From NCBI RefSeq assembly GCF_988242995.1, contig NZ_OZ547043.1: 64,000 bases of DNA. The stretch is one strand, 5' to 3'. How positions within the stretch are numbered: position 1 is the stretch's first letter; each line of letters opens with the position of its first letter. Made by a program: the position numbers. Shown here in pieces: positions 15,001-18,000 of the stretch.

Positions 15001-18000
15001 TTACCGACAAGAAGGGAAAGGGCCTTCCCGAGAGTGGTAAAGGAGAGGCCCTGGAAATACCCCACAGCCCCGAAAAAGAGCCAGTCAGTTGCTTAACTGA
15101 CTGGCATTACAACTATCTGCCCCGCTTTTTTTGCCACCCACGCCTGCCAGATGATATGGTCCGTCCCCGGATTTTTCGCAGACAAATGCTCGTTGCGTTC
15201 AATGAATAAAGGGGGTATCCAGTTTGGATCGTCGGGATAAAGTGATGACGGAAAAGCGATAAATGCCTTAAGGTCATTTTTATTAATTACTTTTTCAATT
15301 TTAATCATCAGCAGATCGCATTCCATAGTTCTGTGGGTAACAAATAATTAACGGTGACAAACAGGTTGCAACAGCAACGAACGGCACCTTAATAATCAAC
15401 CCAATGAATACAAACGACGAATAAATAGTATTTATTAATGATTACGATAAGGTTAGAGACTACACAGAAGCGCCACAATGCCTTTTGTCGATTTAAGGCG
15501 ACCGGACAAGGCTTATTCTTAATATATTCATAAATTAAATATCATTCACAATAAAAACAAAAAAACTCAAACTCATTATTTAAATCAATGTTCATTTTCA
15601 CACTGATGAAAATACTATCTCATTTATCTTTTATGCCTATATAATCCACCGCATTATTGTCATTTTATTTTTGATATCCAATTTTTTCGTGGTGTATATG
15701 TCTAATAAAATCTTTACGCATTCCCTACCTATGCGCTATGCCGATTTTCCAACGCTGGTTGATGCTTTGGACTACGCCGCTCTGAGTAGCGCCGGAATGA
15801 ATTTTTATGACAGACGTTGCCAACTTGAAGATCAACTGGAATATCAGACGTTAAAAGCGCGTGCCGAAGCTGGTGCGAAGCGGTTGTTATCGCTGAACCT
15901 GAAAAAAGGCGATCGCGTGGCGCTGATTGCCGAAACCAGTAGCGGGTTCGTAGAGGCTTTTTTTTCCTGCCAGTATGCCGGCTTAGTCGCCGTCCCGTTG
16001 GCGATTCCAATGGGCGTCGGTCAGCGGGATTCCTGGAGCGCCAAACTGCAGGGTTTACTGGCAAGTTGCCAGCCCGCAGCCATTATCACTGGTGATGAGT
16101 GGTTACCGCTGGTCAATGCCGCGACGCATAACAACAACCCCGAATTACATGTTTTAAGCCACGCCTGGTTTAAGGCATTACCGGAAGCCGATGTTGCGCT
16201 CCAGCGTCCAGTTCCGAACGATATCGCCTACCTCCAGTACACCTCCGGCAGCACCCGTTTTCCCCGTGGCGTCATTATCACCCATCGCGAAGTGATGGCT
16301 AATCTACGTGCTATAAGCCACGATGGCATTAAATTACGCCCTGGCGACCGCTGCGTCTCCTGGCTGCCTTTCTACCATGATATGGGACTGGTCGGCTTTC
16401 TCCTGACCCCCGTCGCCACGCAGCTCTCAGTAGATTATTTGCGCACTCAGGATTTTGCCATGCGTCCTCTGCAATGGCTTAAATTGATCAGTAAAAATCG
16501 CGGCACCGTTTCCGTTGCGCCGCCGTTTGGCTATGAATTGTGCCAGCGCCGCGTGAATGAAAAAGATCTCGCTGAACTGGATCTTTCCTGCTGGCGCGTT
16601 GCTGGTATTGGTGCTGAGCCGATCTCCGCAGAACAACTCCATCAATTCGCTGAATGTTTCCGTCAGGTTAACTTTGACGATAAAACTTTCATGCCGTGCT
16701 ACGGACTGGCAGAAAATGCGCTGGCTGTCAGCTTCTCTGATGAAGCCTCCGGGGTTGTGGTTAACGAAGTGGATCGCGACATCCTTGAATATCAGGGCAA
16801 AGCCGTCGCGCCGGGTGCTGAAACACGCGCCGTATCGACTTTCGTCAACTGCGGTAAAGCGTTGCCGGAACATGGCATTGAAATCCGCAATGAAGCAGGT
16901 ATGCCGGTCGCGGAACGTGTGGTAGGCCATATTTGCATCTCCGGCCCTAGCCTGATGAGCGGTTACTTTGGCGACCAGATTTCACAAGACGAGATTGCCG
17001 CGACGGGCTGGTTAGACACCGGCGACCTCGGTTATCTGCTGGACGGTTATCTGTATGTCACCGGACGCATTAAAGATCTGATTATTATTCGTGGCCGTAA
17101 TATCTGGCCGCAGGATATTGAATATATTGCGGAACAGGAACCGGAAATTCATTCTGGCGATGCGATTGCTTTTGTTACCGCCCAGGAAAAAATCATTCTG
17201 CAGATCCAGTGTAGGATCAGCGACGAAGAACGTCGTGGGCAGCTTATCCACGCACTGGTAGCACGGATCCAAAGCGAATTTGGCGTAACAGCGGCTATCG
17301 ATCTGTTGCCGCCCCACAGTATTCCCCGAACGTCCTCCGGCAAGCCTGCCCGTGCGGAAGCGAAAAAACGTTATCAGAAGGCTTATGCTGCAAGCCTTCA
17401 TGTGCAGGAATCCCTGGCATGAATCAAACTGTCGCGGTGACGGGCGCTACCGGGTTTATCGGTAAATATATTATCGATAACCTGCTCGCCCGCGGCTTTC
17501 ACGTTCGCGCATTGACGCGTACTGCCCGCGCTCACGTCAATGACAATCTCATCTGGGTGCGCGGTTCTCTGGAAGATACTCATTCACTTAGCGAACTGGT
17601 TGCCGGAGCCAGCGCGGTGGTCCATTGCGCCGGACAAGTGCGCGGGCACAAAGAAGAGATTTTTACCCGCTGTAACGTTGACGGCAGCCTGCGACTGATG
17701 CAAGCGGCAAAAGAGAGCGGCTTTTGCCAACGTTTTCTGTTTATCTCTTCGCTGGCGGCGCGCCATCCCGAACTCTCCTGGTACGCAAATTCCAAACACG
17801 TCGCCGAACAACGGCTGACTGCAATGGCTGATGAAATTACGCTGGGCGTTTTTCGTCCGACAGCCGTGTATGGTCCCGGCGATAAAGAGTTAAAACCGCT
17901 GTTTGACTGGATGCTGCGCGGCCTGCTGCCACGACTTGGTGCGCCAGATACACAACTCTCTTTCCTGCACGTCACCGATTTTGCGCAAGCAGTGGGTCAG

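What the first reader, a model, noticed from the sequence alone, without database searches (positions are those of the whole stretch)
15671..17422. Adenylate-forming enzyme with ambiguous, SD-poor start; likely fatty acyl-AMP ligase / acyl-ACP synthetase
AMP-binding core motifs are clear, but the longest frame starts at TTG 15671 and candidate ATGs at 15698 and 15731 lack convincing SD sequences. Placement directly before the reductase, ACP and Spt-like genes suggests it loads a fatty acid onto the dedicated ACP rather than making acyl-CoA.
Basis: partly seen in the sequence, partly recalled or inferred. Interest (0 to 1): 0.55.

Follow-up and report, generated by a model that had tools for sequence, protein, structure and literature searches.

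The report
Known E. coli sphingolipid acyl-ACP loader

Summary

**Identity.** The product is about 99% identical to PDB 3PBK, the E. coli "Fatty Acyl-Adenylate Ligase". It is 98.1% identical to AasR (ECD_02851) of BL21(DE3). It passes NCBIfam's fatty acyl-AMP ligase cut-off and carries a 27-29-residue FAAL-type insertion relative to E. coli FadD.

**Context.** The gene sits in the yghO / aasR–epi–acpR–spt sphingolipid locus. That locus is present in 4209 of 5426 complete E. coli genomes and is conserved in order across many genera.

**Function.** Published work shows EcFAAL acylates its holo-ACP, and FAALs reject CoA. AasR, AcpR and SPT from E. coli together make 3-oxo-sphinganine.

**Start codon.** The ambiguity is genuine: public annotations use three different starts. 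Comparative evidence favours ATG 15698:
- it has a weak GGTG Shine-Dalgarno match;
- Met12 is not conserved in other genera;
- TTG 15671 is TGG in BL21;
- the upstream frame closes early in other genera.

**Side observation.** In this genome IS4 splits yghO, the putative ceramide N-acyltransferase.

Interest is low.

The parts
15698..17422 (+). aasR / EcFAAL coding sequence from the best-supported start (574 aa): a fatty acyl-AMP ligase that acylates AcpR
   Evidence: ORF. NF006624 scores 869.8 bits against a cut-off of 600. About 99% identical to PDB 3PBK and 98.1% to the BL21(DE3) orthologue. PGAP uses this start in strain CFIAFB20140388. Start choice supported.
15671..15697 (+). In-frame extension upstream of the ATG (TTG 15671, GTG 15689, GTG 15692); probably untranslated leader
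   Evidence: No Shine-Dalgarno match for any of these codons. TTG is TGG in BL21(DE3). The upstream frame is not conserved and closes 3-24 nt before the ATG in Hafnia, Mangrovibacter, Pseudocitrobacter and Tatumella. Even so, some public entries of 576/577 aa start at the GTG 15689 equivalent.
15691..15694 (+). GGTG, a weak Shine-Dalgarno-like element 4-7 nt before ATG 15698
   Evidence: Duplex with the 16S 3' end is -2.8 kcal/mol, the only negative value among the four earliest candidates. The local fold of -30..+30 around the ATG is only -3.1 kcal/mol.
15731..15733 (+). Alternative ATG (Met12), used by PGAP in BL21(DE3) to give a 562-aa form; probably internal
   Evidence: No Shine-Dalgarno match, +1.9 kcal/mol. 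The aligned residue is I, L or Q in many orthologues. BL21 annotation. 562-aa forms.
16772..16858 (+). FAAL-specific insertion (about residues 359-387, DRDILEYQGKAVAPGAETRAVSTFVNCGK)
   Evidence: The YGLAE-to-GWLDTGD distance is 102 residues, against 75 in E. coli FadD. MAFFT shows a single 29-column gap in FadD at this place, and the stretch is conserved in nine orthologues.
15327..15697 (.). AT-rich (31% G+C) divergent intergenic region between yghO and aasR; presumed promoter and leader
   Evidence: G+C content. The consensus promoter scan is no better than shuffles. No Rfam family matches. A perfect TATAAT at 15640-15645 is visible in the sequence, but its function is only inferred.
17419..18333 (+). 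epi / CerR-like NAD(P)-dependent SDR reductase; its start overlaps the ligase stop (ATGA)
   Evidence: GATGFIG at residue 9 and YANSK at residue 122, 96.1% identical to BL21. Named epi = ECD_02852 in PMC9386255.
18365..18613 (+). acpR, the dedicated acyl carrier protein (82 aa, serine of the GLES motif at residue 39)
   Evidence: ACP families. 100% identical to the BL21(DE3) ACP, which is AcpR_Ec ECD_02853, shown to carry 4'-phosphopantetheine.
18613..19785 (+). spt, serine palmitoyltransferase
   Evidence: NF047599 scores 600.1 bits against a cut-off of 500. TFSK lysine motif at residue 241 and 99.5% identity to BL21 SPT_Ec.
15110..15326 (-). 5' fragment of yghO (aca, putative sphingoid-base N-acyltransferase), cut off by IS4
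   Evidence: blastn against intact yghO of L001: L001 5811-6027 matches window 15110-15326.
13684..15109 (+). IS4 element (1426 bp) inserted in yghO, with a 13-bp target duplication
   Evidence: The two L001 alignment blocks overlap by 13 bp, 5811-5823. The transposase matches NF033592, an IS4 family model. None of the 5426 complete E. coli genomes has this junction.
12745..13683 (-). 3' fragment of yghO
   Evidence: L001 4885-5823 matches window 12745-13683.
19820..21966 (-). LptG-like and LptF-like paralogues, convergent with spt; probably part of a sphingolipid export system
   Evidence: PGAP names them lptG and lptF in L001 and BL21. Found beside the operon in 18-23 of 80 species loci. A Caulobacter preprint shows that LptF2/G2/C2 are needed for sphingolipid transport and draws the E. 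coli UTI89 locus.

Best explanation
The gene is aasR (EcFAAL), the first gene of the E. coli sphingolipid operon aasR-epi-acpR-spt.

**Mechanism**
- Its product adenylates a long-chain fatty acid with ATP.
- A FAAL-specific insertion and a plugged CoA pocket stop the acyl group from going to CoA.
- The acyl group goes instead to the 4'-phosphopantetheine arm of the 82-aa carrier protein AcpR, encoded two genes downstream.
- Acyl-AcpR is the preferred thioester substrate of serine palmitoyltransferase, which condenses it with serine to give 3-oxo-sphinganine.
- The SDR (epi/CerR) and YghO (aca) would then convert this to dihydroceramide.

**Translation start**
- Translation most probably begins at ATG 15698, giving 574 aa. 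Initiation would rely on a weak GGTG Shine-Dalgarno match in an A/U-rich, unstructured leader.
- The next gene is translationally coupled through an ATGA overlap.

**Basis of each step**
- Shown by computation here: identity, family membership, the insertion, synteny and the comparative support for the start.
- Shown by others on near-identical proteins: adenylate formation, ACP loading, CoA rejection by FAALs, and 3-oxo-sphinganine formation.
- Inferred: the exact start, native expression, and the end product in E. coli.
For: - **Solved structure.** About 99% identical over all 574 residues to PDB 3PBK, 'Fatty Acyl-Adenylate Ligase'.
- **Family models.** NF006624 FAAL scores 869.8 bits against 600, while the CoA-ligase models fail their cut-offs. 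Pfam AMP-binding, E = 2.7e-57.
- **Insertion.** A 27-29-residue insertion relative to E. coli FadD, in the same place in nine orthologues.
- **Named pocket residues.** The residues Patil et al. name for EcFAAL are all present, offset by the start-codon numbering: pocket-blocking W, M and F; the FAAL-specific helix T..R; and alternative-pocket T and P.
- **Orthology.** 98.1% identity to the BL21(DE3) gene that lies between yghO and the SDR-ACP-spt genes. PMC9386255 numbers these ECD_02850-02854 and calls ECD_02851 aasR.
- **ACP.** 100% identical to AcpR_Ec.
- **Published function.** EcFAAL loads holo-EcACP in vitro, and pocket mutants lose this transfer but not adenylation. AasR_Ec, AcpR_Ec and SPT_Ec together give 3-oxo-sphinganine.
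- **Synteny.** The order FAAL-SDR-ACP-SPT is kept in 65 of 80 species-level loci, from Enterobacterales to Nitrosomonas, Nitrospirota and Gemmatimonadota. YghO lies divergently upstream in 52 of the 80.
- **Start codon.**, plus the NF006624 alignment, in which protein residue 6 aligns with profile position 4.
Against: - Nothing contradicts the function.
- No experimental N-terminus or transcription start is available. Public annotations disagree: 562, 573/574 and 576/577 aa.
- Some genera have a better Shine-Dalgarno match before an ATG five codons further upstream, a codon E. coli lacks.
- E. coli AasR itself was tested for ACP loading only in vivo in PMC9386255. I did not verify that EcACP (UniProt A0A2X1NC35) of PMC8460268 is the adjacent ACP.
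- Native expression is doubtful. BL21(DE3) carries the locus, yet with empty vectors or with SPT alone it gave no 3-oxo-sphinganine spot.
- In this genome yghO is broken by IS4, so the pathway may not reach ceramide.
Confidence: 0.92

Rival explanations
1. The gene is an ordinary FadD-like fatty acyl-CoA synthetase that supplies acyl-CoA to Spt, as in eukaryotes and Sphingomonas in vitro assays.
For: SPTs of this group, including SPT_Ec, can use palmitoyl-CoA weakly in vitro. Older GenBank entries name the protein 'acyl-CoA synthetase'.
Against: All CoA-ligase NCBIfam models score far below their cut-offs. The FAAL insertion is present, as are the CoA-pocket-blocking residues. Published assays show that FAALs reject CoA and that acyl-AcpR is the preferred SPT substrate.
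Confidence: 0.02
2. The gene is a FAAL of the classical kind that starts a polyketide or lipopeptide pathway, not sphingolipid synthesis.
For: The closest non-E. coli solved structures are FAAL domains of polyketide synthases and FadD32-type enzymes.
Against: There is no PKS or NRPS gene within 6 kb in any of the 80 related loci examined by tblastn for the window's neighbours. Instead, a stand-alone ACP and Spt follow in 65 of the 80. The three E. coli proteins reconstitute 3-oxo-sphinganine synthesis.
Confidence: 0.02
3. Translation starts somewhere other than ATG 15698: at ATG 15731 (562/563 aa, as PGAP calls it in BL21), at GTG 15689 (576/577-aa public forms), or at TTG 15671 (the longest frame).
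For: All three alternatives are in frame and open. RefSeq and GenBank carry the 562-aa and 576/577-aa forms. The residue numbers used for EcFAAL in PMC8460268 equal the ATG 15698 numbering plus 3, which fits a GTG 15689 entry. The Shine-Dalgarno match at 15698 is weak.
Against: None of the alternatives has any Shine-Dalgarno complementarity. TTG 15671 is TGG in BL21. Met12 is I, L or Q in many orthologues, so they must start upstream of it. Residues 6-11 align with the family profile. Sequence upstream of the ATG is not conserved between genera, and the frame closes within 3-24 nt in several.
Confidence: 0.2
4. The gene is intact, but in this strain it belongs to a decaying or silent pathway. 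With yghO split by IS4 and a locus that appears unexpressed in the laboratory, the ligase has no current physiological role.
For: IS4 interrupts yghO at about codon 69-72. BL21(DE3) with the native locus shows no 3-oxo-sphinganine without over-expression. K-12 has lost the whole segment next to an IS5. About 22% of complete E. coli genomes lack the locus.
Against: All four operon ORFs are full length and 96-100% identical to BL21. The locus is kept in 4209 of 5426 genomes and across many genera, which argues for selection. The IS4 junction is found in no complete genome, so the insertion is probably recent.
Confidence: 0.3

Closest known systems
EcFAAL (PDB 3PBK; Zhang et al. 2011, as cited in PMC8460268), the E. 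coli fatty acyl-adenylate ligase
   Same: The same protein for practical purposes. It aligns over all 574 residues at 1289 bits with a handful of substitutions. The motifs, the FAAL insertion and the pocket residues are the same.
   Different: The window's allele has one extra Asn (HNNNPEL against HD-NPEL) and about seven substitutions. The crystallised construct replaces Met1 with a tag.
AasR_Ec (ECD_02851) of E. coli BL21(DE3), the specialised acyl-ACP synthetase for sphingolipid synthesis (Padilla-Gomez et al. 2022, PMC9386255)
   Same: 98.1% identical and in the same place in the same locus, with an identical AcpR and a 99.5% identical SPT.
   Different: BL21's RefSeq CDS is annotated from Met12 (562 aa). 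BL21 has an intact yghO, whereas the window's yghO is split by IS4.
AasR_Cc (CC_1165) of Caulobacter crescentus
   Same: It has the same role and the same gene partners (acpR, spt, epi, aca). In vitro it acylates AcpR but not CoA or AcpP.
   Different: It is more distant in sequence and was not among the 80 closest loci. The partners do not interchange fully: AasR_Ec does not serve AcpR_Cc.
Mycobacterial FAALs (FadD32, FAAL28)
   Same: Same ANL fold, FAAL insertion and ACP-directed transfer. Matches reach E = 1e-66 to 1e-41.
   Different: They load polyketide synthases for mycolic acid and PDIM lipids. NCBIfam scores against these models are far below their cut-offs: FadD32 281.5 against 975, FadD28 207.2 against 1100.
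E. coli FadD (fatty acyl-CoA ligase)
   Same: AMP-binding superfamily, with shared core motifs YGL(A/T)E and GWLxTGD.
   Different: It lacks the 27-29-residue insertion. The window's protein scores 100.7 bits against the FadD model cut-off of 884. FadD makes acyl-CoA.

Membership tests
Fatty acyl-AMP ligase (FAAL) | ANL-superfamily adenylation fold with the core AMP-binding motifs | tested here: met
   PF00501, E = 2.7e-57. Motifs YTSGST, YGLAE, TGDL, GRIKD and SSGK found.
Fatty acyl-AMP ligase (FAAL) | Score above the curated family cut-off | tested here: met
   NF006624 scores 869.8 bits against a cut-off of 600, covering residues 6-563 of 574.
Fatty acyl-AMP ligase (FAAL) | FAAL-specific insertion of about 20 or more residues in the N-terminal domain, absent from acyl-CoA ligases | tested here: met
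   The stretch between the YGLAE and GWLDTGD motifs has 27 more residues than in E. coli FadD, and FadD shows a 29-column gap there. Only one acyl-CoA ligase was used as comparator.
Fatty acyl-AMP ligase (FAAL) | Blocked canonical CoA pocket (bulky W/M/F and the FAAL-specific helix) and an alternative pocket guarded by T/P | tested here: met
   The residues named for EcFAAL in PMC8460268 are found at the corresponding positions: T80, P104, W222, M229, F277 and TQDFAMR at 250-256.
Fatty acyl-AMP ligase (FAAL) | Makes acyl-AMP, does not make acyl-CoA, and transfers the acyl group to holo-ACP | not testable with these tools
   Reported for EcFAAL and the FAAL class in PMC8460268. Not measured for this allele.
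AasR (sphingolipid-specific acyl-ACP synthetase of alpha-, beta- and gamma-Proteobacteria) | Encoded with acpR and spt, and usually with epi and aca | tested here: met
   The window has aasR-epi-acpR-spt with yghO divergent upstream. The same order is kept in 65 of 80 related loci.
AasR (sphingolipid-specific acyl-ACP synthetase of alpha-, beta- and gamma-Proteobacteria) | Orthology with an experimentally studied AasR | tested here: met
   98.1% identity and the same position as ECD_02851 of BL21(DE3).
AasR (sphingolipid-specific acyl-ACP synthetase of alpha-, beta- and gamma-Proteobacteria) | Selectively acylates its own AcpR, which SPT then uses | not testable with these tools
   Shown in vivo for the E. 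coli trio and in vitro for Caulobacter.
FadD-type fatty acyl-CoA ligase | Score above the curated cut-off of a CoA-ligase model, and no FAAL insertion | tested here: not met
   PRK07768 scores 345.9 against 572, FadD 100.7 against 884, and FadD3 133.7 against 657. The insertion is present.
FadD32 / FAAL28 (mycobacterial PKS-loading FAALs) | Equivalog-level score and a PKS partner | tested here: not met
   FadD32 scores 281.5 against 975, and FadD28 207.2 against 1100. The neighbours are ACP and Spt, not a PKS.

The most novel reading that the evidence does not exclude
Wild E. coli may make a so far undescribed sphingolipid under conditions not met in the laboratory. The 31% G+C leader and weak initiation site of aasR would then be part of a silencing or conditional switch, and the adjacent LptF/G paralogues would export the lipid. 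In this particular strain, the IS4 break in yghO would divert the pathway to free 3-oxo-sphinganine or sphinganine instead of ceramide. I found no paper in the held library that shows native sphingolipid production by E. coli.
Probability: 0.2. Interest if true: 0.5.

Novelty: already known. Interest (0 to 1): 0.1.

Why it matters
The gene itself adds nothing new. Its structure, its rejection of CoA, its loading of the carrier protein and its place in 3-oxo-sphinganine synthesis are all published.

Two practical points remain.

- Public annotation of this very common E. coli gene uses three different start codons, and published residue numbering follows a start that is probably wrong. A comparative argument for ATG 15698 could harmonise the annotation.
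- About 78% of complete E. coli genomes carry a full sphingolipid locus whose native product and inducing conditions remain unreported in the papers I could search. K-12 has lost the locus, which explains why it is little known.

Tried and rejected
- **Rfam scan.** A scan of 15100-15800 at E up to 1 found no match, so no known leader RNA or riboswitch is present.
- **Promoter and terminator scan.** The consensus scan of 15100-20000 found 8 promoter-like sites against 5.8 ± 2.1 in shuffles. None is convincing in the aasR leader. The perfect TATAAT at 15640-15645 lacks an acceptable -35 and stays a guess.
- **IS4/yghO junction.** I searched the E. coli complete genomes for this junction to place the strain. 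No genome covers it. The exact 574-aa protein is nevertheless on 17 public E. coli contigs.
- **Original 3PBK paper.** I tried to read it by PubMed id, but it is not held. Its content is cited only through PMC8460268.
- **First BL21(DE3) fetch.** It missed the locus; the second fetch found it.
- **Longest frame as the gene.** Considered and rejected. TTG 15671 is not conserved even within E. coli.
- **Met12 as the start.** Considered and rejected on comparative grounds.
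Full report
**Observation**

The + strand ORF 15671..17422 (583 aa from TTG) exists as described. The raw sequence shows TTG 15671, ATG 15698 and ATG 15731 in one frame. Two further in-frame GTGs lie at 15689 and 15692.

Pairing of the 22 upstream bases with the 16S 3' end gives:

| Candidate start | Duplex energy (kcal/mol) |
|---|---|
| TTG 15671 | +1.5 |
| GTG 15689 | +0.6 |
| ATG 15698 (GGTG at 15691-15694) | -2.8 |
| ATG 15731 | +1.9 |
| Three downstream genes of the operon | -4.1 to -6.4 |

The region around ATG 15698 is A/U-rich and barely structured, at -3.1 kcal/mol over 60 nt.

**What the protein is**

- Pfam finds an AMP-binding domain, E = 2.7e-57.
- NCBIfam places the protein in NF006624 'fatty acyl-AMP ligase' with 869.8 bits against a cut-off of 600.
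- Every acyl-CoA ligase model and the mycobacterial FadD32/FadD28 models fall well below their cut-offs.
- Against the PDB, the protein aligns end to end with 3PBK, 'Fatty Acyl-Adenylate Ligase' of E. coli. The score is 1289 bits, with about seven substitutions and one extra Asn.
- The distance between the YGLAE and GWLDTGD motifs is 102 residues, against 75 in E. coli FadD.
- A MAFFT alignment with nine orthologues and FadD shows one 29-column gap in FadD opposite residues ~359-387.
- Patil et al. (PMC8460268) name several residues for EcFAAL: the pocket-blocking W, M and F, the FAAL-specific helix T..R, and the alternative-pocket T and P.
- All are present in the window's protein. They are T80, P104, W222, M229, F277 and TQDFAMR 250-256, numbered from ATG 15698.

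**Where it sits**

The 4.6-kb stretch matches 4209 of 5426 complete E. coli genomes at 95-99% identity. PGAP annotates the following genes there:

- yghO, divergent
- fatty acyl-AMP ligase
- NAD-dependent epimerase/dehydratase family protein
- acyl carrier protein
- spt
- then, convergently, 'lptG', 'lptF', a YtfJ-family protein, a hypothetical protein, a 'lipopolysaccharide biosynthesis protein' (yghQ), and yghR/S/T

Further points on the operon and its distribution:

- The ligase stop overlaps the SDR start (ATGA), and the ACP stop overlaps the spt start. This fits an operon with translational coupling.
- K-12 MG1655 lacks the whole segment. An IS5 sits between yghO and a shortened yghQ.
- Among the 80 best species-level loci from GTDB genomes, the order FAAL-SDR-ACP-SPT is kept in 65.
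- These loci run from Hafnia, Serratia, Citrobacter, Erwinia and Pseudomonas to Nitrosomonas, Nitrospirota and Gemmatimonadota.
- YghO lies divergently upstream in 52 of the 80.

**What is already published**

Padilla-Gomez et al. 2022 (PMC9386255) name the BL21(DE3) genes:

| Locus tag | Name |
|---|---|
| ECD_02850 | yghO / aca |
| ECD_02851 | aasR |
| ECD_02852 | epi |
| ECD_02853 | acpR |
| ECD_02854 | spt |

They report the following:

- AcpR_Ec carries 4'-phosphopantetheine.
- Co-expression of AasR_Ec, AcpR_Ec and SPT_Ec yields 3-oxo-sphinganine.
- AasR_Ec works with its own AcpR but not with the Caulobacter AcpR.
- SPT_Ec prefers acyl-AcpR to palmitoyl-CoA.

The window's proteins compare with those of BL21 as follows:

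| Protein | Identity to BL21(DE3) |
|---|---|
| Ligase | 98.1% |
| SDR | 96.1% |
| ACP | 100% |
| SPT | 99.5% |

Patil et al. 2021 (PMC8460268) show in vitro that EcFAAL transfers 14C-lauroyl to holo-EcACP. Single mutations at the alternative pocket abolish this transfer without affecting adenylation. They also show that FAALs reject CoA.

**The start codon**

The ambiguity is genuine and visible in the databases.

- PGAP starts the gene at the ATG 15698 equivalent in strain CFIAFB20140388, giving 574 aa.
- In BL21(DE3) it starts at the ATG 15731 equivalent, giving 562 aa, although the two upstream sequences are almost identical.
- The 90% cluster holds forms of 562, 573/574 and 576/577 aa.
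- The 576-aa form corresponds to GTG 15689. It explains why the residue numbers in PMC8460268 equal my numbering plus 3. This last point is inference.

Comparative evidence favours ATG 15698.

1. TTG 15671 is TGG in BL21.
2. The residue aligned with Met12 is I, L or Q in many orthologues, so they cannot start there.
3. An ATG aligned with 15698 is present throughout Enterobacterales, followed by the conserved MSxxxxxHSLPMRYADF. The translated sequence upstream of it is unrelated between genera, and the frame closes 3-24 nt upstream in Mangrovibacter yixingensis, Pseudocitrobacter, Hafnia and Tatumella.
4. Residues 6-11 align with positions 4-9 of the family profile.
5. ATG 15698 is the only candidate with any Shine-Dalgarno complementarity.
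6. The crystallised construct begins at residue 2 of this form.

None of this is direct evidence of initiation. I put ATG 15698 at about 0.8.

Several genera (Pluralibacter, Shimwellia, Tatumella, Pseudomonas marginalis, Azomonas) have another ATG five codons upstream with a better Shine-Dalgarno match. E. coli has TTT there.

**Regulatory region**

- The 371-bp yghO-aasR intergenic region is 31% G+C, against 51.6% for the window.
- The consensus promoter scan is no better than shuffles.
- Rfam finds nothing.
- BL21(DE3) carries the native locus, yet with empty vectors or with SPT alone it shows no 3-oxo-sphinganine spot. This suggests the native operon is poorly expressed in laboratory culture; that is my inference from their control lanes.

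**State of the pathway in this genome**

Comparison with the intact locus L001 shows a 1426-bp insertion at 13684-15109. It encodes an IS4-family transposase (NF033592) and is flanked by a 13-bp duplication.

The insertion splits yghO about 70 codons from its start. YghO is the homologue of the Caulobacter N-acyltransferase needed for dihydroceramide. None of the 5426 complete E. coli genomes has this junction. The ligase operon itself is intact.

**Verdict**

The only residual question the finding raises, the true start, is a routine annotation matter, and ATG 15698 is the best-supported answer.

The broader open point is whether and when E. coli natively makes a sphingolipid. That is not specific to this finding.

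Noticed in passing
window 13684-15109 (IS4), with yghO fragments at 12745-13683 and 15110-15326 on the - strand: A 1426-bp IS4 with a 13-bp target duplication splits yghO, the putative ceramide N-acyltransferase (aca) of the sphingolipid locus, about 70 codons from its start. None of the 5426 complete E. coli genomes shares this junction.
   Followed up: yes
window 15671-15733; L001 6399; L003 15835: RefSeq and GenBank annotate this one gene from three different starts, giving 562, 573/574 and 576/577 aa. PGAP is inconsistent between genomes whose upstream sequences are nearly identical. Published EcFAAL residue numbers appear to follow the 576-aa (GTG) form.
   Followed up: yes
window 19820-24742, - strand: LptG-like and LptF-like paralogues, a YtfJ-family protein, a 274-aa hypothetical protein and YghQ (a flippase-like 'LPS biosynthesis protein') lie convergent with spt. 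PGAP names the first two plainly lptG and lptF. The LptF/G-like pair accompanies the operon in 18-23 of 80 species loci. A 2026 preprint shows that such paralogues transport sphingolipids in Caulobacter and draws the E. coli UTI89 locus.
   Followed up: partly
L086 (E. coli K-12 MG1655 3126000-3136000): K-12 has an IS5 between yghO and a shortened yghQ, in place of the whole aasR-epi-acpR-spt-lptG/F-like segment. The laboratory reference strain therefore lacks the sphingolipid locus that about 78% of complete E. coli genomes carry.
   Followed up: partly
window about 16127-16135 (residues 144-146 of the ligase): This allele has a one-codon in-frame insertion, HNNNPEL against HD-NPEL in 3PBK and BL21. 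The exact 574-aa sequence occurs on 17 public E. coli contigs.
   Followed up: partly
L006, L009, L011, L019, L020, L023 (15 nt upstream of the aligned ATG): In several other genera an additional ATG five codons upstream (M-A-x-L-x-M-S-E-T...) has a stronger Shine-Dalgarno match (-3.0 to -4.9 kcal/mol) than the ATG aligned with 15698. Those orthologues may be five residues longer.
   Followed up: no
window 15327-15697: The divergent yghO-aasR intergenic region is 31% G+C in a 51.6% window. It has a perfect TATAAT at 15640-15645 but no acceptable -35 and no Rfam match. This may relate to the apparent silence of the native operon in BL21(DE3).
   Followed up: partly
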